This document shows positions 16,710 through 61,683 of a stretch of DNA of 64,000 nt, piece after piece. The notes beneath the pieces were generated by a model. The model was not told the origin of the DNA and searched no databases. It worked only from the letters and a program-made list of their open reading frames with translations. The DNA is from a virus (Duplodnaviria; Heunggongvirae; Uroviricota; Caudoviricetes; Herelleviridae), in the IMG/VR virus record IMGVR_UViG_3300030514_000001, positions 1-64,000 of that record; one strand, 5' to 3'. Each line of letters opens with the position of its first letter. The stretch's first letter is position 1. Position numbers and translations under genes: made by a program.

Positions 16710-16730
16710 AAAATCTCTTCTTTTTTTATT
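16698..16730 (+). terminator. rho-independent terminator
   Basis: GAAGAGA...TCTCTTC stem plus T7. Confidence 0.65.
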
Positions 16731-16737
16731 TTTATTG

Positions 16738-16766
16738 TTGACTTTTAGAATAGTAGAGTGTAATAT
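16738..16766 (+). promoter_or_regulatory. sigma-A-type promoter (TTGACT-17-TAATAT)
   Basis: Consensus hexamers with a 17-bp spacer, after a terminator. Confidence 0.6.
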
Positions 16767-36892: not shown

Positions 36893-37502
36893 CCAAGATA
36901 TATTCGCACTGTCGAATAAGCATTTAACGTATTACAAGCGTGGTGCCTTAACAGTTAATGGAGCGCCGCTTTATATTGTCGAACTGGTGAAAGAACCGGG
37001 AACAGCTTTATACGCAGTTGTATACGATGTACATACGCCTCATCCAGTAGGACAAGGTATTAAACCGAAAAAGAAAGCTAGAAAAGTATCAACTAAGATT
37101 AACACATTTAGTACAAAGACAGTACTAGGTAGACTTGCAAATAGCGTGATTCCATCTAAGAAGCAAGAGTCATGGGTAGAGGAACCGCCTCTGTTTATTG
37201 CCCCAATCGTACCGAATGGTATATCTACTTTAACAGGTAAGCGTGAAGATGGATTCTTTGAACGAGAAAGAGACACACAACGTAGTATTGGTGGAGAATT
37301 AAAATGGGAACGCGGAGAAAATACAGGCGTATTCATTGGACTTTCTTCTATTACATGGTTTGAAGACCTATCTATCCCGGTAGAATCTATCGTAAAAGCT
37401 CTTATTAGAGAACAGCAAGAGCAGAGTGATTTCTTCGACCTTACAGGTAACAATGAAGATAGCTCTAATCCGCTATCAAGATACTACAAAAGTTTAGAAT
37501 AA
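36882..37502 (+). CDS. hypothetical protein
   Basis: GTG after GGAAGGAGAG. Confidence 0.5.
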   Translation: MKNDQDIFALSNKHLTYYKRGALTVNGAPLYIVELVKEPGTALYAVVYDVHTPHPVGQGIKPKKKARKVSTKINTFSTKTVLGRLANSVIPSKKQESWVEEPPLFIAPIVPNGISTLTGKREDGFFERERDTQRSIGGELKWERGENTGVFIGLSSITWFEDLSIPVESIVKALIREQQEQSDFFDLTGNNEDSSNPLSRYYKSLE

Positions 37503-37507
37503 AGTTG

Positions 37508-37536
37508 TTGACTTTTAGGAAATGATAGTTTACTAT
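37508..37536 (+). promoter_or_regulatory. sigma-A-type promoter (TTGACT-17-TACTAT), member of the conserved GTTGTTGACTTT family
   Basis: AAGTTGTTGACTTTTAG upstream context shared with other copies. Confidence 0.6.
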
Positions 37537-41308: not shown

Positions 41309-41326
41309 TAGTTTATAATAACAAAA

Positions 41327-41352
41327 GTCTCACTACTTAGTGGGGCTTTTTA
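41327..41352 (+). terminator. rho-independent terminator (first of a tandem pair)
   Basis: GTCTCACTAC-TT-AGTGGGGC stem plus T5. Confidence 0.55.
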
Positions 41353-41437
41353 GTTTGCTCTAAACAAGATTCTGTTGACTAATCGTAAACAAAATGTTTC
41401 TGTACAAGATACTAAATATTCTGTAAAATAAAAAGTA

Positions 41438-41460
41438 ACACTACCTAGTGAGGTTTTTTC
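41438..41460 (+). terminator. rho-independent terminator (second of the pair, similar in sequence to the first)
   Basis: ACACTACC-TAGTGAGG stem plus T6. Confidence 0.45.
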
Positions 41461-41626
41461 ACTTTTTTGTTTAATTTAGGAAATTGCTAATAGATTTATT
41501 ATATTATAGATAGAGTGCAAAAAAAGCCTATGACAACCGCATTCTTAGGAGGTAACTACCTCATTTAATATATAGCAATAGTCAAAAGGGTTAGAAAATA
41601 AAACGATGAAAAGGTGGAAAAATTCA

Positions 41627-42321
41627 TGTCAAAAGATAAAAAAACTTTAAACTCTGGTAGTGTATTAGTTCAATTATACAAGGATAAGAAGCTCTGCACA
41701 AAAGTAGACAACATGTTAGATGAAGGGAAAACATATGACTACATTATAGAGTTCTGTAAGGAACAAGGTTTAAGTATCTCTAAAGCCTCCCTGACGAACT
41801 ATAAAAAGAAAAGAGAAGAATCTATTGAGACAGGCGTACCATTGCTCCAGCTCTTAGATAAGCGCTCTAAAGACAACGTAACGTACATATCTGAGAAACG
41901 TGTAGAAATGTTTAACGAACAGGAGAAAGAAAGTTACAATCCAATAGGAGCAATCGATAAAGTAGAGAAAGTATTTAACGATATTGAGTTCCTTGATGAA
42001 GTTATCCATAAAGGATTTAAAGGGTTAGCTTCATTTGATATCGTGGACATTCCTTTAGCAATGAAAGCAATGGAAATTAAAGCGAAGATTACCAATAACG
42101 CATTAGGCGGGTTGAGTGTATCAGCATTAAAAGAAATGGCAATCAAAGTACGTTGTAAGGAATCTGCTCTTACAGAAGTAGTCATGAAATATGTACCTGT
42201 AGAACAACACGAACAACTATTTGAAGACTTAGCAGCAGCAGAGCAAGAGTTCTATGACAACTTAGATTTAACTGAGATGGATAGAAAGACTCGTGAGGCA
42301 ATGCAAGCCTTTGGTTTGTGA
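41627..42321 (+). CDS. hypothetical protein
   Basis: ATG 9 nt after AAAGGTGG. Confidence 0.55.
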
Positions 42322-42339
42322 TAATAAGGAGGGATTAAA

Positions 42340-42828
42340 TTGACGATACCGATTACAGAAGTAGCGGACTGGAAAGAGTTGAAATACGAAGTGTATCAAA
42401 CGCTGGAAGATAAAGTTCTGGCGTTACTACGCGGAGAGATTATCTATATCAAAAACTATGAGAAGAATACAGGTACAAGTGTATTAGCTAGGTTAGTAGT
42501 AGAAAGAGGTTTTACGATACCGCAGATTACATACGACATATACGATTCTACAGAGGAAGATAGATATTGGTTACGATTCAATATCGGTTTAACCGACTTA
42601 TCTCTGTTAGATGTATATAAAGTATATGACACTAGTATTTTCCTTAAACCGAATAAATTCAAAGTAGGTGACAACGTAAGTTACACTTCTACAGATGGCA
42701 CATTTGATGCAGCTTATGTTATAGCAGTCTATGAAAGAAATGAAAATGAATTTGCCTATAAACTATCACGAGAGCCGAACGTATTATACGAAGAAAGCCT
42801 ATTAGTATCAAGTAAATTCAATCTTTAG
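42340..42828 (+). CDS. hypothetical protein
   Basis: TTG after TAAGGAGGGAT; followed by a strong terminator. Confidence 0.55.
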   Translation: MTIPITEVADWKELKYEVYQTLEDKVLALLRGEIIYIKNYEKNTGTSVLARLVVERGFTIPQITYDIYDSTEEDRYWLRFNIGLTDLSLLDVYKVYDTSIFLKPNKFKVGDNVSYTSTDGTFDAAYVIAVYERNENEFAYKLSREPNVLYEESLLVSSKFNL

Positions 42829-42860
42829 AACAAGATGAAAAATTCTTGTTCTTTTTTTAT
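42827..42860 (+). terminator. rho-independent terminator
   Basis: AGAACAAGA...TCTTGTTCT 9-bp stem plus T7. Confidence 0.7.
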
Positions 42861-42869
42861 GGAATAGTG

Positions 42870-42898
42870 TTGACTTAAAGTGAATACAATGATAAGCT
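42870..42898 (+). promoter_or_regulatory. sigma-A-type promoter (TTGACT-17-TAAGCT), GTTGACTTAAAGT family
   Basis: Conserved family context; weak -10. Confidence 0.5.
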
Positions 42899-42929
42899 GT
42901 AATCAAGATAACGAAAGGGAGTTGAAGAA

Positions 42930-43121
42930 ATGGAAAACACTACTAAAAAAGTATCAGTTGTAATGGTATCTGATGGGTTTGATTTACCTTATCCAGTTAA
43001 AGTATTTGAAAAGGAACTAGATGCAAAAGAATACATAGAAGAAAAGAAAGTAGAAGGTTCTGGTCTTTACCCGCATCGATACATAGTTGACGCTGTTTTC
43101 GTACCAAAAGAAATATGGTAA
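42930..43121 (+). CDS. hypothetical protein
   Basis: RBS GAAAGGGAG; follows a promoter. Confidence 0.5.
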   Translation: MENTTKKVSVVMVSDGFDLPYPVKVFEKELDAKEYIEEKKVEGSGLYPHRYIVDAVFVPKEIW

Positions 43122-43141
43122 ATTAAAAGGAGGAAAATATA

Positions 43142-43696
43142 ATGATTGATTTAAAGAATGATTTAGTAGAGGACAAGCTAGTAGTTGTAGAGGAGAAAGT
43201 GAAAGCACCAAAAGGTTCTAAGAATCCATTAACACCGGAGCAAGAAGCTGGAGTAGCTAGAATGTACTTACGAGGAGAAAAAGTAGTAGACATCATTGCT
43301 AAGTATAAAATTGCCGCAGGACGTATCTACCGTATCTTAGCTCGTAACGGTATTGAAAAACGCGCACCGGAATACAACCGAGCAGGTAAAGCGAGAATGC
43401 TATCACTTAGCAAATACGAGAAAGATAGAATCGTAGATGATTACATACGGAAAGTACCTGTACGAGAAATCCTAGAAAAGTACGGATTAAACAAATACGC
43501 ACTATACACGGTACTAGATGAGAGAAAGGTTACTCGTCAAACTGAGAAAGATGAAGAAACGAAAACAACAAAGAAAGTACATAAGGATACAAAACAGAAA
43601 CTTCCAGTGGAAGCATACATACAAGATAGAGTCGCATATGTTAAAATTTCACAAGGTACGAACAAAATTGAACAAATCCGCATTGACTATATTTAG
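43142..43696 (+). CDS. putative DNA-binding protein with two helix-turn-helix-like repeats
   Basis: Repeated motif (...EKVVDIIAKYKIAAGRIYRIL.. and ..VPVREILEKYGLNKYALYTVL..); RBS AAAAGGAGGAAAA. Confidence 0.45.
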   Translation: MIDLKNDLVEDKLVVVEEKVKAPKGSKNPLTPEQEAGVARMYLRGEKVVDIIAKYKIAAGRIYRILARNGIEKRAPEYNRAGKARMLSLSKYEKDRIVDDYIRKVPVREILEKYGLNKYALYTVLDERKVTRQTEKDEETKTTKKVHKDTKQKLPVEAYIQDRVAYVKISQGTNKIEQIRIDYI

Positions 43697-43724
43697 TCGT
43701 GCGGGTTCCTAAGGAGGAGTTGTA

Positions 43725-43973
43725 ATGGAAAGAACAGGATGGGAACATTATGATTTAGAAAAAGAGATGAGAGACGCTAGTGTAGCTAAATTACTAGGTA
43801 TGTACAAATGTGAAAAACAAAAGGCTTTGGATACATGCGGAGAGTTCCTAAAGTTAACTGGTAGTTTAACAGATAAAGGCGCGAAAGAGTTCGATGATAA
43901 GTGTCAGTTGCTAGTAGAAGGTGCTAAAAAGATAGCGGAGCGTATTGCAGATAAATTAACGGAGGATGAGTAA
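43725..43973 (+). CDS. hypothetical protein
   Basis: RBS TAAGGAGGAG. Confidence 0.5.
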   Translation: MERTGWEHYDLEKEMRDASVAKLLGMYKCEKQKALDTCGEFLKLTGSLTDKGAKEFDDKCQLLVEGAKKIAERIADKLTEDE

Positions 43974-43974
43974 T

Positions 43975-44235
43975 ATGAACTTATACCGAGAAGTTTCAAT
44001 TGATGAGCTTGAAACAATTCGAGAAGCGTTTATGGAAAGGTACTTTGGAGGATGGCACAAAGCTACATGTGAGTTCCATCAATCACTTGTAGAAGGTAGA
44101 AGAGGCGCAGCTAAGAGGATACTGGACTTAGAATGTAATGGGTTTAACATGATGCGGGAGTTTAAGGATATAGACCGTATCTACAAAGCTATTAAGTTAA
44201 TCGATAGCGGTCAAAAAGTATACACAGATTTATAA
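43975..44235 (+). CDS. hypothetical protein
   Basis: ATG 9 nt after ACGGAGGA. Confidence 0.5.
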   Translation: MNLYREVSIDELETIREAFMERYFGGWHKATCEFHQSLVEGRRGAAKRILDLECNGFNMMREFKDIDRIYKAIKLIDSGQKVYTDL

Positions 44236-44252
44236 AAAGTTTTTAAAAGTTG

Positions 44253-44281
44253 TTGACTTAAAGTAAACAAGATGATAATAT
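44253..44281 (+). promoter_or_regulatory. sigma-A-type promoter (TTGACT-17-TAATAT), AGTTGTTGACTTAAAGTAAA family
   Basis: Near-identical to the 61629 copy over about 38 bp. Confidence 0.65.
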
Positions 44282-44306
44282 AAAGGTAGAGAAAGGGGAT
44301 GAGAAA

Positions 44307-44642
44307 GTGGTAAACAAAATAGAAGAACTAAGAAACTTTGTAGAAGAAAAAGCAGAAGGGTTTAGGAACTTAAATGACTCATCTGATGTAATCGTAATGA
44401 TAGTGCTAAATGACATCCTAGATAAGATTGAAGAACTACAAAATGGGAAGCCAATGTACGTGGTTCAATACCAAGATTTAAAAGGTGAAAGTACATACGA
44501 AGACTACTCACGATATAAATCAGCATCAGAAATCTACTATTACCAGATTAAATCAGTAGCGAAGAACGTGAAACTGTTTATGGAAGTTGATGGAATTAGA
44601 GTAACTATTCTAGATGCGGAGGGTGACAACGATGAGAGTTAA
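44307..44642 (+). CDS. hypothetical acidic protein
   Basis: GTG after AAAGGGGATGAG; follows a promoter. Confidence 0.5.
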   Translation: MVNKIEELRNFVEEKAEGFRNLNDSSDVIVMIVLNDILDKIEELQNGKPMYVVQYQDLKGESTYEDYSRYKSASEIYYYQIKSVAKNVKLFMEVDGIRVTILDAEGDNDES

Positions 44643-44850
44643 ACGTTGGATTTATGAAGTGAAGTATACATTAAAAGATTGCCTGATGCTTACGCGTACA
44701 CTACCAGATTTATATGAAGAAGAGCGCGATGCAGAACTAGAAGCGGAGAAGTTAAAGTTAGAGCTAGGAGACACATATGCAGTTGTCAAAGTGGTTCCGA
44801 GACATCTAGTATCTAACAAGTATAATGTAGAATACAGAAATGGATGGTGA
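44632..44850 (+). CDS. hypothetical protein
   Basis: ATG 9 nt after GCGGAGGG. Confidence 0.5.
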   Translation: MRVKRWIYEVKYTLKDCLMLTRTLPDLYEEERDAELEAEKLKLELGDTYAVVKVVPRHLVSNKYNVEYRNGW

Positions 44851-44856
44851 TTGATT

Positions 44857-45102
44857 ATGAACCTAGAAGAATTAGAAAACAAAATCAAACAGCAAAACGA
44901 ACTTGAGGATAAAATAGCAGCTTTACAAGACGTGTCATACGATTTAGGTAGAGAGATATTCAAGGAGTTCAGAGAGCTTCCATTAGATAAGGTCTTAAAA
45001 TACTACGACATGATGAATAGAGAGAATGATAGTATTGTACGGTATGACATATTCAGAGAAATCATCTTACCTAACAAAGAGAAATTAAAGGAGTTGCTTT
45101 AA
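44857..45102 (+). CDS. hypothetical protein
   Basis: 83-aa frame; weak RBS. Confidence 0.45.
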   Translation: MNLEELENKIKQQNELEDKIAALQDVSYDLGREIFKEFRELPLDKVLKYYDMMNRENDSIVRYDIFREIILPNKEKLKELL

Positions 45103-45552
45103 ATGAAACTAGACTATGGTTCGGGAAGACAACCAAAAGAAGGTTTCATGTCTTCCGACTTCATTGGAACACCAAATTACGATTTCTACATTAAAGACTA
45201 TAAAGTACTTGATACAGAAGACCATATGTTTGATGCGATTCACTGTCGTAATGTAATCCATCATATTCCGGAGAAAGACTTACATATCTTATTTGCAGAG
45301 TTTAATAGATTGCTAAAACCAGATGGAGAGCTTATCATTTCAGAACCACGAGAAGAGTTCCATGAGCAGAATAAGTTCTTAGACTGGATATGGTATCGCT
45401 GGATTACGAACGATACAAACATCATGATTCCAGATGAGTATGTAGATTACAAGAAGTATTTAGTTGATTTCGACATTATTAGCACCGTAGACCATTACAA
45501 TAATGAAGTTCTTACGTTAAAGAAAAAACAAATAATGGCACAAGCCGTATAA
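45103..45552 (+). CDS. small class-I SAM-dependent methyltransferase-like protein
   Basis: LDYGSG (motif I-like), FDAIHCRNVIHHI (motif II), LKPDGELIIS (motif III); only 149 aa. Confidence 0.4.
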   Translation: MKLDYGSGRQPKEGFMSSDFIGTPNYDFYIKDYKVLDTEDHMFDAIHCRNVIHHIPEKDLHILFAEFNRLLKPDGELIISEPREEFHEQNKFLDWIWYRWITNDTNIMIPDEYVDYKKYLVDFDIISTVDHYNNEVLTLKKKQIMAQAV

Positions 45553-45565
45553 GGAGAGTTTAATT

Positions 45566-45769
45566 ATGATGACAATGGTACAAGCACCAACACCAGATAG
45601 ACCGGAAGATAAGTTAGTGGAGTTTATGACAGCAAACAATTTTTCGAAAACAGATATATACGCTGCATTACAGAACATCGAAGAAGCAAACATGGTACTG
45701 TACAGCAAAGAGTGGGACATTAAGTGTAAAAACAATTATGTATGGGTGAAAGGGGAGTTAACACAATGA
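45566..45769 (+). CDS. hypothetical protein
   Basis: RBS TAAGGAGAG. Confidence 0.5.
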   Translation: MMTMVQAPTPDRPEDKLVEFMTANNFSKTDIYAALQNIEEANMVLYSKEWDIKCKNNYVWVKGELTQ

Positions 45770-46074
45770 ACAATGCAGAAGAGATTCTAAGATTACAAGC
45801 GCAGATTAGGAAATTAGAGAACGAACAAGCAGCATTTGACGCTCTATCAGAGGACAAGCAGTTAGCCATAACACTTCATGAACTAATGTGTAACTGGAAT
45901 CATGTAGATGGTTGTGGATGGGAATATGAAATTAGTAAAGGTACACATAACTGGAATGGGTACGCACATAAAAAATGGGTAGAGAATGCACAAAAACTCA
46001 TTAAACTGTGTGCTTGGGATAATGTAGAGTTATCAACAGCAATAGAAATATTAAAAATGGGGAGAGGATTTTAA
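45766..46074 (+). CDS. hypothetical protein
   Basis: ATGA overlap; RBS GAAAGGGGAG. Confidence 0.5.
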   Translation: MNNAEEILRLQAQIRKLENEQAAFDALSEDKQLAITLHELMCNWNHVDGCGWEYEISKGTHNWNGYAHKKWVENAQKLIKLCAWDNVELSTAIEILKMGRGF

Positions 46075-46076
46075 TT

Positions 46077-46289
46077 ATGACAAACCAAAAAATTTACATT
46101 ATTGAGACGGGTATTTGTGACGAGGGAGAGCCATACCAACTTTGTAGAGAGGTACCGGAATGGTGGACTATGCAGGACATTGATGATGATATTCAAGATG
46201 ATGAAGATACAAACATCGGAGCTGAGTTTAAGGAGTGGTCATTCCGTTTATCGACAACACCAGTAGAAGAATATGGGTTATGGATGTAA
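46077..46289 (+). CDS. hypothetical acidic protein
   Basis: RBS GAGAGGAT. Confidence 0.5.
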   Translation: MTNQKIYIIETGICDEGEPYQLCREVPEWWTMQDIDDDIQDDEDTNIGAEFKEWSFRLSTTPVEEYGLWM

Positions 46290-46307
46290 AAAAGTTTAAA
46301 AAAGATG

Positions 46308-46336
46308 TTTACTTTTAGTAAAAGATAGGCTATAAT
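46308..46336 (+). promoter_or_regulatory. sigma-A-type promoter (TTTACT-17-TATAAT)
   Basis: Perfect -10 with a 17-bp spacer. Confidence 0.55.
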
Positions 46337-46367
46337 AAACTTAACAAATAACAAGGGGGAAACAAAA

Positions 46368-47177
46368 ATGACAAAAACACGTAAAGCTACAGGTAAGAGA
46401 GAACCAAAAGGCGCAATGGAGAAAGCGTTTGTAGCATCTGAACGAGTAGAAAAACAATTATTCGAAAATGAAAAGGGAGCGGTTAAAATGACGAAAGCAA
46501 TGCTAATTAACGCTGTATCAAATGAAGAGGTATTTGTTGAAATCAATAAGGACGACCTAGTAGTAGTTACTCGTGAAGGAGTAGGCTCTACAGTTTATAA
46601 TAAACGTTACACAGTTGAGAAGGTAGTTGACCAATTCACATCAGAAGGATGGATTGATGTAACGGAACAAAATAAAGTAATGAAATCAGAAGCGTTAGAC
46701 ACAGTACCGGATTTAGCGATTATTACAGAAATCAAACCATTAGCACCTGTTGAAGAAGAAGTTGACGAGAAAACAGCTATGGTGGCGGAAGTAGATGCAT
46801 ACACAGAGTTACATGCGGAAATCGCAGCACTTAATAAAGAATTAGAGAAGAAGAAAAAAGCGATTCGTACATACATGGATGAAAACAAATTGAAAGTATT
46901 AACTGGTACAAAAGGTAAAGAAGTATATCTTCAAACGAATAAGGCTTCTAATTCTTCTGCTGAGTACACGACTTACGATGTGAATATGATTAAAGATATC
47001 TTAAATGTAGAGCAATACAGCGAAGTTACAGAAGTACGTGTATCCGCTTCATTACTTAAGAAGAAAATTACAGACGGTGAGTTTTCTGAGGGTGAGTTAA
47101 AAGCTATTGAACGTGCTGAGAACTACAAGCTTGGAACGCCTAAATTCACATTACGTAAAGTAAAGGAAGAAAAATAA
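46368..47177 (+). CDS. hypothetical protein
   Basis: RBS CAAGGGGGAAAC; follows a promoter. Confidence 0.55.
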   Translation: MTKTRKATGKREPKGAMEKAFVASERVEKQLFENEKGAVKMTKAMLINAVSNEEVFVEINKDDLVVVTREGVGSTVYNKRYTVEKVVDQFTSEGWIDVTEQNKVMKSEALDTVPDLAIITEIKPLAPVEEEVDEKTAMVAEVDAYTELHAEIAALNKELEKKKKAIRTYMDENKLKVLTGTKGKEVYLQTNKASNSSAEYTTYDVNMIKDILNVEQYSEVTEVRVSASLLKKKITDGEFSEGELKAIERAENYKLGTPKFTLRKVKEEK

Positions 47178-47653
47178 TGACAGAGTTAACAAGAGTAGAA
47201 ATAGAAGCTAAGGTTTTAGCTGATATCATTAAAAAAGAGGAGAGCGCTAATCCGCATAAGGTTATCGCCTCCAAGCTAACTGATTTAGATTGTGAACAAA
47301 TCTTAGCAGCGTCTAGAGGAGCCAAGTTTATTGAAGAGGTAATTAACCGATACGGAGACACAGCGGACGAGCAAGACCCAACTCATTGCGTGTGGCAAGA
47401 TGTAGAATCTCTAGACTATGGTTGGATGTGGTTAAACTATCGAGAAGAGCATATGAAAGAGGTAATGATTGCCCACATCACAACGAGTGTTCGAGCTTTA
47501 CAGAAACGTATGGACGATGGGGAGGAGTTCACATTGGTTAAAACCGTACAAGACGAGTATGGAGACACAGTATCGTTCCACATACTTGATGTTGTAGAGA
47601 ACGGGGATTCTACAGTTTGGACATTCTCTAATGAAGACACCTTTTTAGCATAG
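47177..47653 (+). CDS. hypothetical protein
   Basis: TAATG overlap; followed by a terminator. Confidence 0.55.
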   Translation: MTELTRVEIEAKVLADIIKKEESANPHKVIASKLTDLDCEQILAASRGAKFIEEVINRYGDTADEQDPTHCVWQDVESLDYGWMWLNYREEHMKEVMIAHITTSVRALQKRMDDGEEFTLVKTVQDEYGDTVSFHILDVVENGDSTVWTFSNEDTFLA

Positions 47654-47678
47654 AGCGACATTGTTCGCTCTTTTTTTA
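47652..47678 (+). terminator. rho-independent terminator
   Basis: GAGCGA...TCGCTC stem plus T7. Confidence 0.65.
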
Positions 47679-47687
47679 ATTTTATTG

Positions 47688-47716
47688 TTGACTTTCGGTA
47701 CAGCACATGTTAAGAT
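47688..47716 (+). promoter_or_regulatory. sigma-A-type promoter (TTGACT-17-TAAGAT) for the sigma-factor gene
   Basis: ATTGTTGACTTT family; after a terminator. Confidence 0.6.
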
Positions 47717-47748
47717 ATTAATAGATAAACAAAGAGGAGGAGTTAAAA

Positions 47749-48666
47749 GTGAGTGCAGTAGCAGAAAAGAAAATTAAAAATTACGATTTAATTGTACAAG
47801 CTAAAGAAGGTTCCGAAGATGCAATGGGGAAACTGTTGAAGGAATACCATAAAATGATTTATAGAGAGGTTTGTAGATTTACAAAAGATAAAGATAAACA
47901 AGATGACTTATATCAAATCGGGGCGTTAGCTCTTATAGAAGCGGTAGACCGATTCGATTTATCCACAGGAAATGAGTTTAGTACATACGTATTTATGCAG
48001 ATTAAAGGGAGAATCATGGTGAATATGCGTGATAATCGTACACTCAAGTTCCCTCGACCTATGGTTGAGCTAGGTTTGAAGATTAAGAAGTACGACTTAG
48101 CTAAAAAGGACATAGAGTACATTTGCGAGTACTTAAATGAAACAGAAGATAAAGTTATGGATGCTTTACTATTCATAGATAGAGAGTATGCATTAAGTAC
48201 ATCAGCTACTATAGACTCTGGTAAAAGCAACAATAAAGACACTATAACAATAGGAGACTCGCTTATTAAGGATGCAAATGGAGAACAGTGGGAAAACGCC
48301 ATTATGCTTAGAAGTTATATTGAACGATTACCAAAGGAAGAGCGTGCAGTAATCAATGCAATGTACATAGAAGACAAACAACGGATTGATGTTAGTAAAG
48401 AAATGGGTACTAACCCTACAAACATAAGTAGAATCGAACAGCGCGCCCTAGCTAACTTACGTAGACTGATAAATGGGGAAGAAGTCGTATATAAGAAAGA
48501 AACTAGAGGAGCTAGTGCAAATAACGCTAAAGGGAACCAAACTCTAGCGAAAGAATTGGTTCGTAAAGGTGAGCTAAAACAAATAGAAATTGCTAATTTA
48601 ACGGGGGTTTCAACAGGTACAATTGGGTACTGGGCTAGAAAGATTCGAAATGGTAAAAAAATTTAA
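47749..48666 (+). CDS. sigma-70 family sigma factor (phage-encoded)
   Basis: Region 2 (DLYQIGALALIEAVDRFD...FSTYVFMQIKGRI) and region 4 (ISRIEQRALANLRRL), plus an extra C-terminal HTH; GTG after AAGAGGAGGAG. Confidence 0.65.
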   Translation: MSAVAEKKIKNYDLIVQAKEGSEDAMGKLLKEYHKMIYREVCRFTKDKDKQDDLYQIGALALIEAVDRFDLSTGNEFSTYVFMQIKGRIMVNMRDNRTLKFPRPMVELGLKIKKYDLAKKDIEYICEYLNETEDKVMDALLFIDREYALSTSATIDSGKSNNKDTITIGDSLIKDANGEQWENAIMLRSYIERLPKEERAVINAMYIEDKQRIDVSKEMGTNPTNISRIEQRALANLRRLINGEEVVYKKETRGASANNAKGNQTLAKELVRKGELKQIEIANLTGVSTGTIGYWARKIRNGKKI

Positions 48667-48675
48667 TAAAACTTG

Positions 48676-48704
48676 TTGACTTTAAGTGAAACGTGGTATA
48701 TACT
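48676..48704 (+). promoter_or_regulatory. sigma-A-type promoter (TTGACT-17-TATACT), CTTGTTGACTTTAAGT family
   Basis: Conserved family context. Confidence 0.6.
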
Positions 48705-48728
48705 GGTAAGTACAAGGAGGTGAGACAA

Positions 48729-48920
48729 GTGAAAGCGAAGGAACTAACAGTAACGGTATTAGCCATTATCGGTATGCTATCGATATTGAACTACGTCATC
48801 TTAGTAGCCCCGGGCATCATCAACTTACTGTTCTACGTTGTACTTATCATTGTAGGTGTCACGTCTTATAATCACTTTGCCAACAAGAAGAAAAATAAAG
48901 ACAAAGATGCAGGTAAATAA
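48729..48920 (+). CDS. small membrane protein
   Basis: GTG after CAAGGAGGTGAG; 2 TM. Confidence 0.5.
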   Translation: MKAKELTVTVLAIIGMLSILNYVILVAPGIINLLFYVVLIIVGVTSYNHFANKKKNKDKDAGK

Positions 48921-49023
48921 GAGTACCTATTTTAAGGAGGTGAATACGAAATGTCAGTAGAAAATAACGTTTACGAAATCACTAAATTATTAGCAGAGTA
49001 CAAAGAAGGAAAGGGTAAGTAAG

Positions 49024-49221
49024 TTGAACGAGACAGCACTAGAGAAAATCAGAAATGCAAAAGAATACCTAGAGAGAGCCGAGAGAGCGTTATTAGAGAA
49101 GGATATACAGCTTTCTCTAGGTAATCTAGACAGTGTAGAATTTGAAGTAGAAGCAGCCAAGTGTCTGCTAAGAGATGACCTAAAACAGAGGAGGAATTAT
49201 AATGAGTGGTTTTCTAGATAG
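49024..49221 (+). CDS. hypothetical protein
   Basis: TTG start. Confidence 0.4.
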   Translation: MNETALEKIRNAKEYLERAERALLEKDIQLSLGNLDSVEFEVEAAKCLLRDDLKQRRNYNEWFSR

Positions 49222-49552
49222 AATGTTTAAGAATATGGAGAAGGAATTTATTTTCAAAGGAGAAACACTTACATACAACAAGTTAAAAGAAGAGTTACAT
49301 AGAGATAATGTACTAAAGGTTTATACTGACACATCTCGATTCGAACGTAAATTAATGAAGTCACCAGAAGGGCAAATGTTCTTATATGAGTATCACGAAG
49401 AGATGGGGTTCCCGGACGACAGAATCACTGAATTGTTTGTACTTGTTTCTTCTGAGGAAGATGCGGACAAGCTTAACCAAGACCATTTTATTGCATCAGG
49501 TAGACCTCATATTTACGTAGGTGAAGCTTGCGCTGTAAGTGTACGAGGTTAA
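49202..49552 (+). CDS. hypothetical protein
   Basis: RBS AGAGGAGGAAT. Confidence 0.5.
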   Translation: MSGFLDRMFKNMEKEFIFKGETLTYNKLKEELHRDNVLKVYTDTSRFERKLMKSPEGQMFLYEYHEEMGFPDDRITELFVLVSSEEDADKLNQDHFIASGRPHIYVGEACAVSVRG

Positions 49553-49556
49553 TAGG

Positions 49557-49673
49557 ATGCACATCGAGTTTACAATACCAGAATGGTTAGTAGGAGTTCT
49601 AGGGGTTGTAGTGGCTGCACCGTTACTATTCATACTGTCTGTATACATATACTTCGTACTACGATATAAATAA
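49557..49673 (+). CDS. small TM peptide
   Basis: 38 aa, hydrophobic; not in the track. Confidence 0.3.
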   Translation: MHIEFTIPEWLVGVLGVVVAAPLLFILSVYIYFVLRYK

Positions 49674-49685
49674 GGGGGAACTTAA

Positions 49686-49892
49686 ATGTTAAGAACATCG
49701 AATTTACTGTCACTATTCTTTTTAAGTCTATGGACATTCTTCTGTCTAGGTGCTTTTTACCAGACGGAGTTCGGAGCTTTATCTAGCTCAAATGATTACG
49801 AAAACTTAGGAAGATATTTAGGTATTCTAGGGCTTGCTCAATTGGTTGTCACAGTAGTAAACTTAGTTGATTTATGGAAAGAAAAATACTAA
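49686..49892 (+). CDS. small membrane protein
   Basis: RBS TAAGGGGGAAC; 2 TM. Confidence 0.5.
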   Translation: MLRTSNLLSLFFLSLWTFFCLGAFYQTEFGALSSSNDYENLGRYLGILGLAQLVVTVVNLVDLWKEKY

Positions 49893-49907
49893 TAAGGAGG
49901 ACAAGCT

Positions 49908-50624
49908 TTGTTACAATTTATAGGACGCGGAAGCGCATTTAACACATTAGAAGGTAACAACAGCGCATATTGCATTCACGAAGGAGAACTATTCCTGATT
50001 GACTGCGGTAGCAACGTATTCGAACGATTAGACCATGCAGGTGTTCTAGGAGTCGTAAAGAATATTAAAGTACTAATCACACATACTCACGATGACCATA
50101 TCGGTTCATTAGGAGGACTCATCTTCCACTCATACTTCAATATGGGTACAATGGGAGAGAAGAATATTACGGTATACGCACCGTACACACTTAAGGTTCC
50201 TAAGATTCTAGATTTAATGGGAGTAACCAGCAAGTATTATCATATTAAACAGTTCGAATCACATATCGAATTAGAGTACGCAAATGACCCTGTATTTGTA
50301 CAAGCTGTACCTAATCATCACGTAGAAGAATTACTATCTTATGGGTACTTACTAGACATTAAAGGTAAGTGCGTATACTACAGTGGAGACTCGAACAATA
50401 TCCATCCATACATATTAGGACGATTAGAAAGTGGAATAATCGATTACTTTTATCAAGACACATGCAAAGCTGATTATGAAGGTAATGTACACTTATCCAT
50501 AAATAAGTTGTGTGAACTAGTAGGAAAGAATCGAGATAAGGTTTACTGCATGCACTTAGATAAAGGATTCCCGGTACAGTGGGTGAAAACATTAGGGTTT
50601 AATGTGGTAGAATCAGTTTTCTAG
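49908..50624 (+). CDS. metallo-beta-lactamase-fold hydrolase
   Basis: ITHTHDDHIGSLG (HxHxDH) motif; TTG after TAAGGAGGAC. Confidence 0.6.
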   Translation: MLQFIGRGSAFNTLEGNNSAYCIHEGELFLIDCGSNVFERLDHAGVLGVVKNIKVLITHTHDDHIGSLGGLIFHSYFNMGTMGEKNITVYAPYTLKVPKILDLMGVTSKYYHIKQFESHIELEYANDPVFVQAVPNHHVEELLSYGYLLDIKGKCVYYSGDSNNIHPYILGRLESGIIDYFYQDTCKADYEGNVHLSINKLCELVGKNRDKVYCMHLDKGFPVQWVKTLGFNVVESVF

Positions 50625-50645
50625 ATACATAGAAGGAGCAATAGA

Positions 50646-50816
50646 ATGGAAGAATATCGTTATGCTGTGGTATATCGCAGTAACCCAAAAGTAAGACTAT
50701 CCAAGACGTTTACACGAAAAGGTGATGCGAAAGCATTTCGAAAGAAACGATTCAATGGGGATAAGGAAACATATAAGATAGCGAAATATAAACTTACATT
50801 AGTTGAGGAGGATTAA
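50646..50816 (+). CDS. hypothetical small basic protein
   Basis: 56 aa; not in the track. Confidence 0.4.
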   Translation: MEEYRYAVVYRSNPKVRLSKTFTRKGDAKAFRKKRFNGDKETYKIAKYKLTLVEED

Positions 50817-50817
50817 G

Positions 50818-51129
50818 TTGTCAAAACCTAAATACGAATATAAACACCCGGTCACACTTGATGTGAAAGTATTCGACCCTGTACTATTCAGTGTAGGCTC
50901 TCCGGTTGTTATGCAGATAGAGACAAGTGACTGGGAACGAATGTACTGGAGAGAAGAATACGGTATTGTAGAAGCCTACAATGAAACTGAGTTACATATC
51001 CTTATGGTAGATTACAACGGACAACCAGAAACAAAAGTTGTACAGATTAGGTTCTTGGATGATAGGTTTAATATCATCCCATTAAAAGAATTAATTAAAG
51101 GATTACAGGAGGAACTAGATGCAAAGTAA
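50818..51129 (+). CDS. hypothetical protein
   Basis: TTG after GAGGAGGAT. Confidence 0.5.
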   Translation: MSKPKYEYKHPVTLDVKVFDPVLFSVGSPVVMQIETSDWERMYWREEYGIVEAYNETELHILMVDYNGQPETKVVQIRFLDDRFNIIPLKELIKGLQEELDAK

Positions 51130-52315
51130 ATTATTCATGCCAAAAACATTAAATGTAGGGTATCAAAATAGACAAGGGACTTACACTGGTAGCCTAGCTT
51201 ACGTCATTTATTACGATGAAACGGGTAAACTACGAAAAGAGACATCATGGGAAAGCTGGAGAGATACGAAGATTCCTAATCAAGAATTTGAAAACGTACC
51301 AACAGAAGGATTCGTGTTCAATAAGACAGGCGGAGGGCGACCATCATGGAGTGACCGTAAAGCATTCTGTCGCGTATACGACCCACGAGGATTCGAATTT
51401 GAGATTGATATGGCTAACTTAATGCACATTCTAGAGTGCTGCGATGTAATGAAGGGTAAAGGTATTGTAGGTGAACTGGTATACGCATGGGAAGGTACAG
51501 AGCTTGTTTTAGTACCTGTAAACTCTGCTACATATGAAGAGTCTAAGAGATACACAGATATCTTAATGAATAAGGAACAAATTAAAGCCAAAGACTTAAA
51601 GGTCGGGTATACATACATCGATAAAGATGAATCGAAGTACATTTACTTAGGTAAGTTTCATGAGTACGATTATAGAACAGATTACAACGACTCGTATAGA
51701 AGACAAAAGGTTACGAAATCTAAAGCTAAGAAATTCTTCTTCGCAGAGGAATGTCGCTGGTCTAGTAATAAGGACTGCCCGTGGATGATTAAAACAGTTA
51801 GCTCTTTAGGTAAGAAGTTCATCAAAGAGTTAGAGGTAGGATGCGTCCAAGACTTCACGCCATTCCAAAACATGTTAGAACATTCTCAATACTATTCACC
51901 AGTTGATTCGAGTAAAGATGAGTTGTATCCAATAGACCCAAAGTTCATTATCGAAAGAGTTCTAGATAAAGAAAAACATACATGGGATAGACGAGTAGGA
52001 TTCTACACGAAAGCTCACGGCGATACGCGTGAATACGATATCGTAATGGAGTCGGTGTATGATAAGCCGTATAGTTGGACTGGAAACAGAGATAGAAAAG
52101 TTATCGGCGTAGAAGCAGTAGTTACACATAGATACGGAGAATACGGTAGAGATAGCGAAGCGTATCGCGGTTCATTAGAAGGCTTCTTTACACGATTCAC
52201 TGGAGACATGGAGCCTTGCTTCATTAAGAGATATTTAGAGAACGATAAGTTCTACTCATTTAAAGGTTCAGTACCAGAACACCAAATAAATAAAGATGAT
52301 AAGGAGCAAAAATAA
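51119..52315 (+). CDS. hypothetical protein
   Basis: RBS CAGGAGGAAC; 398 aa. Confidence 0.55.
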   Translation: MQSKLFMPKTLNVGYQNRQGTYTGSLAYVIYYDETGKLRKETSWESWRDTKIPNQEFENVPTEGFVFNKTGGGRPSWSDRKAFCRVYDPRGFEFEIDMANLMHILECCDVMKGKGIVGELVYAWEGTELVLVPVNSATYEESKRYTDILMNKEQIKAKDLKVGYTYIDKDESKYIYLGKFHEYDYRTDYNDSYRRQKVTKSKAKKFFFAEECRWSSNKDCPWMIKTVSSLGKKFIKELEVGCVQDFTPFQNMLEHSQYYSPVDSSKDELYPIDPKFIIERVLDKEKHTWDRRVGFYTKAHGDTREYDIVMESVYDKPYSWTGNRDRKVIGVEAVVTHRYGEYGRDSEAYRGSLEGFFTRFTGDMEPCFIKRYLENDKFYSFKGSVPEHQINKDDKEQK

Positions 52316-52737: not shown

Positions 52738-52744
52738 TACAACA

Positions 52745-52774
52745 GGCACGGGATACGCTCTCGTGTCTTTCTTT
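52745..52774 (+). terminator. rho-independent terminator (moderate)
   Basis: GGCACGGG...CTCGTGTC stem with G-U pairs plus TTTCTTT. Confidence 0.45.
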
Positions 52775-54261: not shown

Positions 54262-54298
54262 CAAAAAGCACATCAGACGACATGCTTCCAAGTTTTAT
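54262..54298. terminator. bidirectional terminator between convergent genes
   Basis: Imperfect palindrome AAGCACAT...ATGTGCTT flanked by T-tracts on both strands; contains the stop codon of the minus-strand HNH gene. Confidence 0.5.
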
Positions 54299-55006: not shown

Positions 55007-55082
55007 AATATTGATTCCCTCTTTCTTATGGTATATCTCTATTATAACATACTTCGAAAATAAATCGGGGGAGGCTACTTTT

Positions 55083-55196: not shown

Positions 55197-55216
55197 TTAT
55201 AATAGGGTTATAACGG

Positions 55217-59664: not shown

Positions 59665-59682
59665 AAAAAAATAAAAAAGTTG

Positions 59683-59711
59683 TTGACTAATAGTAAAGTG
59701 GGTAGTAAGAT
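59683..59711 (+). promoter_or_regulatory. sigma-A-type promoter (TTGACT-17-TAAGAT), AGTTGTTGACT family
   Basis: Directly after the FtsK-like gene, preceded by an A-rich UP-like tract. Confidence 0.6.
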
Positions 59712-60391: not shown

Positions 60392-60404
60392 GGAGAGGAT
60401 TAAT

Positions 60405-61191: not shown

Positions 61192-61217
61192 CGTGTGAGA
61201 TTTTTTAAAAATAGTTG

Positions 61218-61246
61218 TTGACTTTAAGTAAATAGTGTGATAAGAT
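61218..61246 (+). promoter_or_regulatory. sigma-A-type promoter (TTGACT-17-TAAGAT), AGTTGTTGACTTTAAGTAAA family
   Basis: Near-identical to other family members. Confidence 0.65.
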
Positions 61247-61443: not shown

Positions 61444-61456
61444 AGGGGGAGATAAT

Positions 61457-61621
61457 ATGTACGAAGTAATATGGTGGCTAGAAGGGGATGACTTCTCTTC
61501 TAGTGTTCCAGCTAAGACTAGGACAGAAGCGATTGAACGCGCGCAACGGGCTTACGATAATGGGGCTATTAAGGTACAAGTTAAAGAAACAATATATACT
61601 ATAAAAAGAAAAGATGAATAA
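61457..61621 (+). CDS. hypothetical small protein
   Basis: 54 aa, RBS AAAGGGGGAGAT. Confidence 0.4.
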   Translation: MYEVIWWLEGDDFSSSVPAKTRTEAIERAQRAYDNGAIKVQVKETIYTIKRKDE

Positions 61622-61628
61622 AAAGTTG

Positions 61629-61657
61629 TTGACTTAAAGTAAAATAGATGATAATAT
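61629..61657 (+). promoter_or_regulatory. sigma-A-type promoter (TTGACT-17-TAATAT), AGTTGTTGACTTAAAGTAAA family
   Basis: Near-identical to the 44253 copy. Confidence 0.65.
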
Positions 61658-61683
61658 AAAGATAACGAAAGGAGGTGCTGTCT

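What the first reader, a model, noticed from the sequence alone, without database searches (positions are those of the whole stretch)
41327..50000. Host-takeover-like module: about 15 near-identical strong sigma-A promoters, each driving one to three tiny ORFs
Between about 41.3 and 50 kb, and again from 59.7 kb to the end of the window, almost every one to two genes is preceded by a copy of a conserved roughly 38-bp promoter: A-tract, AGTTGTTGACTT(T/A)AAGT..., a 17-bp spacer, then TAAGAT/TAATAT/TATAAT. Copies at 44253 and 61629, and at 48676 and 61218, are nearly identical. The genes are mostly 50-150-aa acidic, basic, Cys-rich or single-TM proteins, interspersed with a sigma factor, a mini methyltransferase-like protein and an MBL-fold hydrolase. 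This resembles the SPO1 terminal host-takeover module, where small early proteins shut off host DNA, RNA and division functions.
Basis: partly seen in the sequence, partly recalled or inferred. Interest (0 to 1): 0.5.

Follow-up and report, generated by a model that had tools for sequence, protein, structure and literature searches.

The report
Bacillus phage early-promoter array
This part of a Bacillus cereus-group phage related to SPO1 carries a real, conserved family of strong host-type promoters in front of operons of small unknown genes; this is an expected and already described feature of such phages, not a new kind of system.

Summary
The window is a Bequatrovirus (Herelleviridae, Bastillevirinae), 93-95% identical to Bacillus phages B4 and B5S. 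The repeated promoter is real: A/T tract, TTGTTGACTT, 17-bp spacer, TAnnAT, often with TGn before it. A matrix trained outside the window's homologous part gives 17 hits against 0.5 expected. The count was overstated. They head runs of 1 to 11 genes, not 1 to 3. All five copies in 41.3-50 kb sit at orthologous sites in seven relatives and are more conserved than the neighbouring genes. SPO1 early promoters share the architecture, and the region lies just downstream of a homologue of SPO1 gp36.2. However, none of SPO1 gp37-60 has a homologue here, and the region is not in the terminal repeat. In B4 and Spock the densest array (11-13 promoters in about 6 kb, mostly one gene each) lies beyond the window's end, next to the 2.8-kb terminal repeat. 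The TTGTTGAC -35 signature was already published for the related phage Bc431v3. Best reading: host sigma-A early promoters at the inner edge of a roughly 40-kb early and accessory arm. Interest is low to moderate.

The parts
41626..42828 (+). Two-gene unit with no copy of the promoter family. It holds the homologue of SPO1 gp36.2 (41626-42321) and a phrog_1104 'virion structural protein' gene (42340-42828). It probably does not belong to the early set.
   Evidence: blastp to SPO1 gp36.2 gives E = 5e-22. Only a -35-like TTGACT at 41375 lies upstream, with no -10.
42827..42852 (+). Intrinsic-terminator-like hairpin with a T run, directly upstream of promoter P42870.
   Evidence: A terminator is annotated at the orthologous place in BigBertha.
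42866..42898 (+). Promoter P42870: GTGTTGACTT, 17 bp, TGaTAAGCT. It heads four genes (42930-44235). The -10 is TAAGAT in all seven relatives, so this phage carries an A-to-C change.
44245..44301 (+). Promoter, leader and ribosome-binding-site cassette P44253: AAAAGTTGTTGACTTAAAGTAAA..TGaTAATAT. It heads seven genes (44307-46289), including the 149-aa methyltransferase.
   Evidence: (88% identical over 57 nt to 61621-61677).
46300..46336 (+). Promoter P46308: GATGTTTACTT, 17 bp, TATAAT. It has a weaker -35 and a consensus -10. It heads two genes (46368-47653).
   Evidence: (36 bits).
47652..47671 (+). Intrinsic-terminator-like hairpin that ends the P46308 unit, directly upstream of P47688.
   Evidence: Terminators are annotated at the orthologous places in BigBertha and Spock.
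47685..47716 (+). Promoter P47688: TTGTTGACTT, 17 bp, TGtTAAGAT. It heads the sigma-factor gene alone.
47749..48666 (+). Divergent sigma factor of the SigB/SigF/SigG family (305 aa).
   Evidence: Pfam Sigma70_r2 and r4. NCBIfam SigBFG scores 123 bits, below the cut-off of 234. There is no significant similarity to SPO1 gp28.
48662..48704 (+). Promoter P48676: CTTGTTGACTTTAAGTGAAA, 17-bp spacing, TATACT. It heads 11 genes (48729-52737).
49908..50624 (+). MBL-fold hydrolase (238 aa) with an Apyc1-like full-length match. It lies inside the P48676 operon.
   Evidence: Pfam PF23023 Apyc1, E = 1.3e-11, 44.9 bits against a cut-off of 50. PDB 7t28, 7u2s and 7u2r (Apyc1) at 1e-13 to 2e-7; 7fct at 2e-84.
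52744..52768 (+). Intrinsic-terminator-like hairpin (10 pairs) that ends the P48676 operon.
59675..59711 (+). Promoter P59683: AAAAGTTGTTGACTAATAGTAAA..TAAGAT. It heads four genes (59744-61080).
61210..61246 (+). Promoter P61218: ATAGTTGTTGACTTTAAGTAAA..TGaTAAGAT. It heads two genes (61288-61621).
61621..61677 (+). Promoter, leader and ribosome-binding-site cassette P61629: AAAAGTTGTTGACTTAAAGTAAA..TGaTAATAT. It heads at least six genes that run to the end of the window.
37500..37536 (+). It has the best matrix score in the window.
   Evidence: 47 bits.
16730..16766 (+). A further copy of the extended promoter family, inside the replication module.
   Evidence: 39 bits.

Best explanation
The window comes from a lytic Bacillus cereus-group myophage of the genus Bequatrovirus, close to B4 and B5S. 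The repeated element is the phage's own family of strong promoters for the host's primary sigma factor (sigma-A).

Anatomy of the element:
- an upstream A/T tract that resembles an UP element;
- an extended -35 (TTG)TTGACTT;
- a 17-bp spacer that often begins T(T/A)AAGTAAA;
- a -10 of the form TAnnAT, preceded by TGn in 5 of the 8 copies;
- a short conserved leader and a strong ribosome-binding site.

Proposed mechanism. Unmodified host RNA polymerase holoenzyme recognises these cassettes as soon as the DNA enters the cell. It then transcribes rightward operons of small accessory genes. These include a SigF-like sigma factor with its own promoter, an HTH protein, a small methyltransferase and an Apyc1-like MBL hydrolase. 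Few terminators separate the units, so downstream promoters probably add to read-through transcription.

The stretch 42.9-52.7 kb, and again 59.7 kb onward, is the inner part of an early and accessory arm of about 40 kb. In close relatives this arm runs to the right terminal repeat, and promoter density rises towards the genome end.

Shown here: the motif, its statistics, its position and orientation, its conservation, its uneven genome-wide distribution in relatives, and its likeness to SPO1 early promoters.

Inferred: use by sigma-A, early timing, and a host-takeover or counter-defence role for the gene products.
For: - Identity of the phage: 95% to B4/B5S over 41327-50000 and 93% over 1-25000.
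- Motif statistics: 17 hits against 0.5 expected. It forms the top repeat families D1-D4.
- Position: all eight copies are on the coding strand. In 41.3-50 kb each of the five intergenic gaps longer than 60 nt holds one copy.
- Conservation: the five copies in 41.3-50 kb are at orthologous sites in BigBertha, Spock, B4, Chotacabras, Troll, SWEP1 and AvesoBmore. In those eight genomes, invariant columns are 94% for the extended -35, 93% for the -10, 88% for the spacer and 91% for the leader. Nine neighbouring coding segments give 56-82%.
- Uneven distribution in Spock: the exact 8-mer TGTTGACT occurs 22 times in the 38.8-kb right arm, always on the sense strand. It occurs twice in each terminal repeat, 4 times in the left arm (sense strand), once in the 44-kb structural module and 3 times in the 47-kb replication module.
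- A different motif marks the late genes: structural-gene upstream regions carry CTATATTA (7 of its 9 + strand hits fall in the structural module). This motif is absent from the + strand of the window.
- SPO1 early promoters in the terminal redundancy share the A tract, the GTTGTTGAC-type -35, the 17-bp spacer and the TGn-extended -10.
- El-Arabi et al. 2013 (PMC3601020) reported 27 putative SigA promoters with an AT-rich upstream region and a TTGTTGAC -35 consensus in the related phage Bc431v3.
- In SPO1, sigma-A promoters drive the early genes (PMC13401047). In Listeria phage CKA15, another member of Herelleviridae, genes peaking at 5 min lie in and beyond the terminal repeats, behind promoters with AT-rich upstream regions (PMC12282133).
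- The 19-mer GTTGTTGACTTWWAGTAAA is present in several copies in several phage genomes of about 160 kb and in metagenomic viral contigs.
Against: - There are no transcription data for any Bequatrovirus; none turned up in the paper searches. Use by sigma-A and early timing therefore rest on sequence and analogy.
- The same promoter class precedes replication and nucleotide-metabolism genes (window 16738 and 37508; Spock dhfr and thyA region). It does not single out host-takeover genes.
- The conserved spacer bases (AGTAAA) are not needed for sigma-A recognition and could mean a second factor binds there.
- P42870 carries TAAGCT in this phage, a weaker -10 than the TAAGAT of all relatives.
- The genome-wide test had to be done on the relatives Spock and B4, because only 64 kb of this genome is available.
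Confidence: 0.78

Rival explanations
1. The region is a true counterpart of the SPO1 host-takeover module. On this view it is a dedicated block of early genes whose products shut off host DNA, RNA and division functions, and it descends from or is equivalent to SPO1 genes 37-60.
For: The promoter architecture and the repeated leader and ribosome-binding-site cassettes match SPO1. The region starts just after the gp36.2 homologue, in SPO1 gene order. The genes are small, mostly acidic or basic, of unknown function, and vary between relatives through insertions and deletions.
Against: No homologue of gp37-gp60 was found in the window or in the whole Spock genome. The region is not in the terminal repeat. 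Runs reach 11 genes, unlike the 1-3 typical of SPO1. The much denser single-gene array next to the genome end in B4 and Spock is the better analogue. The recognisable contents (sigma factor, methyltransferase, Apyc1-like hydrolase, actin-like and FtsK-like genes nearby) point to mixed accessory or counter-defence functions.
Confidence: 0.3
2. The cassettes act mainly as portable recombination joints, like the early-promoter stem-loop cassettes of T4-type phages. Their shared sequence would let related phages swap the genes between them. Promoter activity would be real but secondary to the pattern seen.
For: Homology breakpoints against seven relatives abut cassette edges at 42932, 44204-44234, 46287-46294 and 48654-48658. 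Two cassettes sit directly behind terminator hairpins (42827-42852 and 47652-47671). The sigma-factor gene between two cassettes has been replaced by a 34-48% identical allele in relatives whose flanks are about 85% identical. Cassettes 44245 and 61621 are 88% identical over 57 nt.
Against: Nearly all breakpoints are also plain gene boundaries. Promoter-bearing boundaries are not clearly over-represented among them: about 4-5 of 12 breakpoints, against 5 of 23 boundaries (my count). The left breakpoint of the sigma swap lies 78 nt inside the ORF (47827), not at the cassette. The shared core is only about 30-57 nt.
Confidence: 0.15
3. The motif is not read by host sigma-A alone. It would be the target of a phage factor: either the SigF-like sigma factor encoded at 47749, or a repressor or activator that binds the conserved ACTTnnAGTAAA overlapping the -35. 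The sites would then be middle-class or switchable promoters.
For: Spacer positions next to the -35 are conserved beyond what sigma-A needs (information content about 0.8-1.0 bit at the GT of AGT). SPO1 promoters also keep a conserved CTA at the same spacer positions. Two HTH or DNA-binding proteins are encoded in these operons (43142-43696 and 49686-49892).
Against: The hexamers, the 17-bp spacing and the TGn are textbook sigma-A features (my own knowledge of Bacillus promoters). They do not resemble SigF or SigG promoters. The sigma-factor gene itself sits behind one of these promoters, so the factor cannot be required for the first round of transcription. The three-base arms ACT and AGT are too short to count as evidence of an operator.
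Confidence: 0.1

Closest known systems
SPO1 host-takeover module (genes 37-60 in the 13-kb terminal redundancy of Bacillus subtilis phage SPO1)
   Same: Both have host sigma-A-type promoters with an A tract, a (G)TTGTTGAC-type -35, a 17-bp spacer and a TGn-extended -10. Both repeat the leader and ribosome-binding-site cassette. Both carry small genes of unknown function. Both lie downstream of gp36.2 in a gene order collinear with polymerase and gp34.
   Different: No protein homology to gp37-60 was found. The region is in unique sequence, not in the terminal repeat. Runs are longer (1-11 genes). The -10 is TAAGAT or TAATAT rather than AATAAT. The inter-gene hairpin repeats seen between SPO1 genes 44, 46 and 56-59 are not seen here.
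Putative SigA promoters with a TTGTTGAC -35 in Bacillus cereus phage vB_BceM_Bc431v3 (El-Arabi et al. 2013, PMC3601020)
   Same: It has the same signature: AT-rich upstream region, TTGTTGAC, and an extended -10 in about half the sites. It occurs in the same broad group of large B. cereus-group myophages related to SPO1.
   Different: That paper placed most of its sites before nucleotide-metabolism and replication genes and could not define early genes. Here, and in Spock and B4, the densest use is before small ORFs of the right arm and next to the terminal repeat.
Early genes in and beside the long terminal repeats of other Herelleviridae (Listeria phage CKA15, PMC12282133)
   Same: Genes peaking at 5 min extend beyond the terminal repeats. 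Their promoters have AT-rich regions upstream of a TTGAC-type -35.
   Different: It is a different genus and host. Timing there was measured; here it is only inferred.
Early-promoter stem-loop cassettes of T4-type phages
   Same: These are repeated early-promoter cassettes, sometimes behind a hairpin, that flank small variable genes in plastic genome regions.
   Different: The phage family is unrelated. Evidence here that the cassettes mediate gene shuffling is inconclusive.

Membership tests
Bacillus sigma-A (sigma-70 type) promoter | A -35 close to TTGACA and a -10 close to TATAAT (A at position 2, T at position 6), separated by 17 +/- 1 bp. | tested here: met
   All eight copies have TTGACT (TTTACT at 46308), exactly 17 bp, and TAnnnT.
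Bacillus sigma-A (sigma-70 type) promoter | Lies in a non-coding gap upstream of a gene, in the same orientation as the gene. | tested here: met
   All copies are on the + strand, 25-45 nt upstream of a ribosome-binding site. In 41.3-50 kb each of the five gaps longer than 60 nt holds one.
Bacillus sigma-A (sigma-70 type) promoter | Transcription starts there with sigma-A holoenzyme. | not testable with these tools
   This needs 5'-end mapping or in vitro transcription.
SPO1 host-takeover module | Located in the long terminal redundancy. | tested here: not met
   The region maps to Spock 122.8-131.5 kb. The terminal repeats are at 1-2800 and 161498-164297.
SPO1 host-takeover module | Proteins homologous to gp37-gp60 (for example gp38-40, gp44, gp50/51, gp56). 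| tested here: not met
   blastp against the window ORFs and tblastn against the whole Spock genome found nothing below E = 0.005. Only gp36.2, which is not one of genes 37-60, matches (5e-22). Pairwise BLAST cannot see very remote similarity.
SPO1 host-takeover module | Dense early promoters, one per 1-3 small genes. | tested here: not met
   Five promoters head 25 genes in 42.9-52.7 kb, in runs of 4, 7, 2, 1 and 11. The feature is met instead by the array at Spock 153-159 kb and B4 30.9-37.3 kb, outside the window.
SPO1 host-takeover module | Promoter architecture of the SPO1 early class. | tested here: met
   Direct comparison with nine promoters read from the SPO1 terminal redundancy.
SPO1 host-takeover module | Expressed early, with products that shut off host functions. 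| not testable with these tools
   No transcriptome or phenotype data were found for this genus.
TTGTTGAC-type putative SigA promoters of large B. cereus-group myophages related to SPO1 (Bc431v3) | AT-rich upstream region, TTGTTGAC at the -35, and a frequent extended -10. | tested here: met
   Seven of the 8 copies have (T/G/C)TGTTGAC (46308 has ATGTTTAC), and 5 of 8 have TGn. The description is in PMC3601020.
Apyc1 anti-Pycsar cyclic-nucleotide phosphodiesterase (for the hydrolase at 49908-50624) | Reaches the Pfam PF23023 curated score. | tested here: inconclusive
   44.9 bits against a cut-off of 50, with a full-length alignment over profile positions 5-223 of 250. Solved Apyc1 chains match at 1e-13 to 2e-7.
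Apyc1 anti-Pycsar cyclic-nucleotide phosphodiesterase (for the hydrolase at 49908-50624) | MBL metal-binding motif HxHxDH. | tested here: met
   The sequence THTHDDH is visible in the alignment.
Apyc1 anti-Pycsar cyclic-nucleotide phosphodiesterase (for the hydrolase at 49908-50624) | Hydrolyses cCMP and cUMP and rescues the phage from Pycsar. | not testable with these tools
   This needs an enzyme assay.
SPO1 gp28 middle-gene sigma factor (for 47749-48666) | Sequence homology to gp28. | tested here: not met
   BLASTP best E = 0.005 over 40 residues, out of register. phmmer finds no hit at E below 1. The protein is a divergent member of the SigB/F/G family.

The most novel reading that the evidence does not exclude
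The right arm of Bequatrovirus genomes may be a counter-defence and host-manipulation island built from interchangeable promoter, leader and ribosome-binding-site cassettes. On this reading the conserved cassettes drive immediate-early expression and also serve as joints that let phages exchange early genes. The Apyc1-like hydrolase, the strongly acidic small proteins (for example 46077-46289 with net charge -14, and 47177-47653 with net charge -18) and the swappable sigma-factor core would be its cargo. Several of the roughly 40 ORFs of unknown function would then be new inhibitors of Bacillus defence or housekeeping systems.
Probability: 0.25. Interest if true: 0.5.

Novelty: new member of a known kind. 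Interest (0 to 1): 0.25.

Why it matters
The practical value is modest.

- It gives a sequence-based map of the probable early transcription units of a B4-like phage. Database records for this genus annotate ribosome-binding sites and terminators but no promoters.
- It shows that the closest analogue of the SPO1 host-takeover module in this genus lies next to the right terminal repeat, not at the place flagged.
- It lists about 40 small early-operon ORFs, plus an Apyc1-like hydrolase, as candidates for host-takeover or anti-defence screens in the B. cereus group.
- The cassettes are compact and probably very strong, so they could serve as promoter parts for B. cereus or B. thuringiensis.

None of this would surprise a phage specialist.

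Tried and rejected
1. The generic sigma-70 consensus scan shows no enrichment over shuffles. It cannot be used as evidence; only the extended motif can.
2. Homology of the small ORFs to SPO1 gp37-60, and to gp24.1, 25.1, 26.1, 27, 28, 33 and TF1, was sought. Only gp36.2, gp34, gp24.1 and the polymerase match.
3. The sigma factor at 47749 as an orthologue of gp28 is rejected on sequence. A gp28-like role as a middle-gene sigma factor remains possible. So does a role in manipulating sporulation, as shown for some phage SigF-like factors (PMC9429907).
4. PHROGs and Pfam place nearly every ORF in a known phage family of unknown function.
5. PDB sequence searches for 41626-42321, 46368-47177, 47177-47653 and 51119-52315 gave no usable hit.
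6. Rfam and tRNA scans of the whole window found nothing.
7. The highly conserved 300-nt gap at 41309-41625 was tested as a structured RNA. The 5' leader folds no better than shuffles (z = 0.25). The upstream part (z = -2.4) is explained by two similar hairpin and T-run elements pairing with each other.
8. The idea of cassette-mediated gene shuffling remains inconclusive.
9. No paper was found for PDB entry 7FCT.
10. I did not run the large protein searches or structure prediction. Nothing in the verdict on the promoter array depended on them.

Full report
**What the window is.** Megablast of 41327-50000 against deposited phage genomes finds only Bacillus phages of one group. The best matches are B4 and B5S (95% identity over 95% of the query), then Spock and Flapjack (about 93%) and some 25 others at 85%. 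The first 25 kb of the window behaves the same way and carries the DNA polymerase, ribonucleotide reductase and exonuclease genes. All these phages belong to the genus Bequatrovirus (Herelleviridae, Bastillevirinae) and infect the B. cereus group. Window position 1 corresponds to about 81.8 kb in Spock, and the flagged stretch to Spock 122.8-131.5 kb. I fetched the whole Spock genome (164,297 bp, with 2,800-bp terminal repeats) so that genome-wide questions could be asked of a close relative.

- A strict scan (TTGAC[AT], 16-18 bp, TAnnnT) gives 15 sites in the 64-kb window that are intergenic, on the + strand and followed by a ribosome-binding site. A TTTACT variant at 46308 makes 16.
- A weight matrix trained only on Spock sites outside the part homologous to the window gives 17 hits at 8 bits or more, against 0.51 expected by chance.
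- The repeat finder, which knows nothing about promoters, reports the element as its four largest direct-repeat families, with nine members between 37.5 and 61.7 kb.
A TTGACT at 41375 has no -10.
- That makes eight or nine copies, not fifteen.
- The density is 0.61 per kb in the ranges against 0.16 per kb elsewhere in the window (P = 0.008).
- The pair 44253 and 61629 is 88% identical over 57 nt, including leader and ribosome-binding site. The pair 48676 and 61218 is 79% identical over 39 nt.
- The plain sigma-70 consensus scan is not enriched over shuffles. The signal lies in the extended motif.

**Anatomy.** The consensus is an A/T tract, (T/G)TGTTGACTT, a 17-bp spacer often starting T(T/A)AAGTAAA, and TAAGAT, TAATAT or TATAAT. 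TGn sits in front of the -10 in five of the eight copies. A leader of 25-45 nt follows, with a shared (A)AAGGTAACGAAAGGGG-type ribosome-binding region in several copies.

In 41.3-50 kb there are 23 closely packed genes with a median length of 86 aa. Each of the five gaps longer than 60 nt holds one promoter. Hairpins followed by T runs lie at 42827-42852, 47652-47671 and 52744-52768. The runs of genes are therefore:

| Promoter | Genes up to the next promoter or terminator |
|---|---|
| P42870 | 4 |
| P44253 | 7 |
| P46308 | 2, then a terminator |
| P47688 | the sigma factor alone |
| P48676 | 11, then a terminator |
| P59683 | 4 |
| P61218 | 2 |
| P61629 | at least 6 |

'One to three tiny ORFs each' is thus not correct. 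The first two genes of the flagged stretch (41626-42828) have no copy of the promoter. One of them belongs to a PHROG family labelled virion structural protein. The promoter-driven part therefore starts at about 42.87 kb, not at 41.3 kb.

**Conservation.** The five promoters of 41.3-50 kb are present at orthologous places in all seven relatives examined, even where genes between them have been gained, lost or replaced. Across the eight genomes the fraction of invariant columns is:

| Segment | Invariant columns |
|---|---|
| Extended -35 | 94% |
| -10 | 93% |
| Rest of the spacer | 88% |
| Leader | 91% |
| Nine neighbouring coding segments | 56-82% |

The cassettes are under stronger constraint than the genes they serve. 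This phage alone has TAAGCT instead of TAAGAT at P42870.

It is not uniform, but the peak is elsewhere.

- In Spock the exact 8-mer TGTTGACT occurs as follows:

| Spock region | Size | Copies |
|---|---|---|
| Right arm (122.7-161.5 kb) | 38.8 kb | 22, all on the sense strand |
| Each terminal repeat | 2.8 kb | 2 |
| Left arm | about 28 kb | 4, all on the sense (minus) strand |
| Structural module | 44 kb | 1 |
| Replication module | 47 kb | 3 |

- Within the right arm the flagged stretch has 4-5 copies in 8.7 kb. By contrast, 153.1-158.8 kb has 11 in 5.7 kb, most with a single small gene each, ending 2.7 kb from the terminal repeat.
- B4, the closest relative, has 13 copies in 6.4 kb at 30.9-37.3 kb. 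That is 8-14 kb beyond the point matching the window's end.
- Structural-gene upstream regions lack the motif. They share a different one, CTATATTA: 7 of its 9 + strand copies fall in the structural module, and one more sits before the holin gene. The window has no + strand copy.
- The two motifs therefore divide the genome by function, as expected for host-sigma early promoters and phage-sigma late promoters.

**Comparison with SPO1.** I fetched the SPO1 terminal redundancy and read the sequences upstream of its genes. Nine of them carry AAAAAG(T/G)(T/G)NTTGAC(A/T), 17 bp, and (A/T)A(T/A)AAT preceded by TGn. They also have a repeated GTAAAAGGAGAGGTT ribosome-binding cassette. The promoter architecture and the cassette habit are therefore shared.

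Gene content is not shared. Of SPO1 gp36.1 to gp60, only gp36.2 has a homologue (41626-42321, E = 5e-22). Nothing else matches in the window or anywhere in Spock. The only other SPO1 matches among the parts compared are:

- the DNA polymerase, including an inserted homing-endonuclease ORF as in SPO1 gene 31;
- gp34, the late sigma factor, at 30650-31285;
- gp24.1.

The order polymerase, gp34, gp36.2 is collinear with SPO1, so the promoter-rich arm begins where the SPO1 module begins. In this genus, however, it lies in unique sequence about 40 kb long rather than in a 13-kb terminal redundancy.

**What the genes are.** Almost every ORF falls in an existing PHROG family of unknown function. The recognisable ones are:

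- an HTH protein (43142-43696);
- a compact 149-aa class I methyltransferase (45103-45552);
- a DUF7376 protein (46368-47177);
- a divergent SigB/F/G-family sigma factor (47749-48666);
- an MBL-fold hydrolase (49908-50624).

The hydrolase aligns over its full length with Pfam's Apyc1 family, just below the curated cut-off. It also matches solved Apyc1 structures. Apyc1 is a phage enzyme that destroys the cyclic pyrimidine signals of the Pycsar defence system. It was noted to sit beside small genes of unknown function in a variable locus (PMC9117128).

The sigma factor is not an orthologue of SPO1 gp28. Some phage SigF-like factors have been shown to alter host sporulation when expressed in B. 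subtilis (PMC9429907). Its role here is open.

**Mechanism proposed.** Host sigma-A holoenzyme recognises the cassettes on entering DNA. The A tract, the extended -35 and, in most copies, the extended -10 make them strong. Transcription runs rightward through polycistronic units with few terminators. Later promoters add to the read-through, and a few hairpins (before P42870, before P47688 and after 52737) insulate units. The products are accessory early proteins.

This rests on sequence features, position, conservation, the genome partition, and measured behaviour in SPO1 and in a Listeria phage of the same family. It does not rest on any transcript data for this genus, because I found none.

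**What is already known.** El-Arabi et al. (2013) reported 27 putative SigA promoters with AT-rich upstream regions and the atypical -35 consensus TTGTTGAC in the related B. cereus phage Bc431v3. The extended 19-mer occurs in several copies in B5S, BigBertha, Spock, a 161,239-bp genome and several metagenomic viral contigs. The finding is therefore a new instance of a described promoter class in a described kind of phage. The small genes remain uncharacterised.

**Verdict.**

It is not a member of the SPO1 host-takeover module by location, gene content or unit size, and it is not the densest such region of its own kind of genome.
- Interest is 0.25.

Noticed in passing
window 47749-48666: The central part of the sigma-factor gene has been replaced between close relatives. 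DNA homology to Spock, BigBertha, Troll, SWEP1 and AvesoBmore stops at 47827 (26 codons in). It resumes at 48529-48658, near the stop codon. Protein identity is only 34-48%, while the flanks are about 85% identical in DNA. B4, B5S and Chotacabras keep this phage's allele.
   Followed up: partly
window 49908-50624: The MBL-fold hydrolase resembles the anti-Pycsar nuclease Apyc1. Pfam PF23023 scores 44.9 bits against a cut-off of 50 over the full length. PDB Apyc1 chains match at 1e-13 to 2e-7. It is about 60% identical to the solved but apparently unpublished structure 7FCT.
   Followed up: partly
window 41309-41625: This 300-nt non-coding gap is almost invariant in eight genomes and more conserved than the flanking genes. 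It holds two similar hairpin and T-run elements (about 41328-41352 and 41437-41462), a TGTACA-17-TAAAAT site between them, and an invariant stretch TTGCTAATAGATTTATTATATTATAGATAGAGTGC. There is no Rfam match and no significant fold for the leader.
   Followed up: partly
Spock (L002-L004) 28.6-75 kb and 113.5 kb; window + strand: A probable late-promoter element, CTATATTA, recurs upstream of structural genes and of the holin gene in Spock. It is absent from the + strand of the window.
   Followed up: partly
window 18811-23212: The DNA polymerase gene is in two pieces. Between them lies an ORF (21552-22127) that is 42% identical to the SPO1 gp31.2 homing endonuclease. This suggests an intron like that of SPO1 gene 31.
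   Followed up: no
window 1336, 5445, 11405, 26904, 36256: A second flavour of sigma-A-like promoter precedes replication-module genes. It has TTGACA, with (c)tag or taa rather than TTG immediately upstream. It may be a separate (delayed-early?) class.
   Followed up: no
window 62105-62842 and 62859-63269: These are tandem paralogous genes (both phrog_6405 and phrog_28261) with a 48-nt direct repeat at 73% identity.
   Followed up: no
window 52888-53979 and 57409-59664: An actin-like (Alp/ParM family) gene and an FtsK/SpoIIIE-like gene (the latter named only in the annotation of relatives) lie between the two promoter clusters. A short stretch of minus-strand ORFs lies at 54273-55378.
   Followed up: no
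window 42325 and other junctions; L007 2001-2948: B4 carries a homing-endonuclease gene inserted between the homologues of 41626-42321 and 42340-42828. This phage lacks it. Other whole-gene insertions or deletions relative to relatives lie at 43995-44204, 46288, 47179 and 49762-49894.
   Followed up: partly
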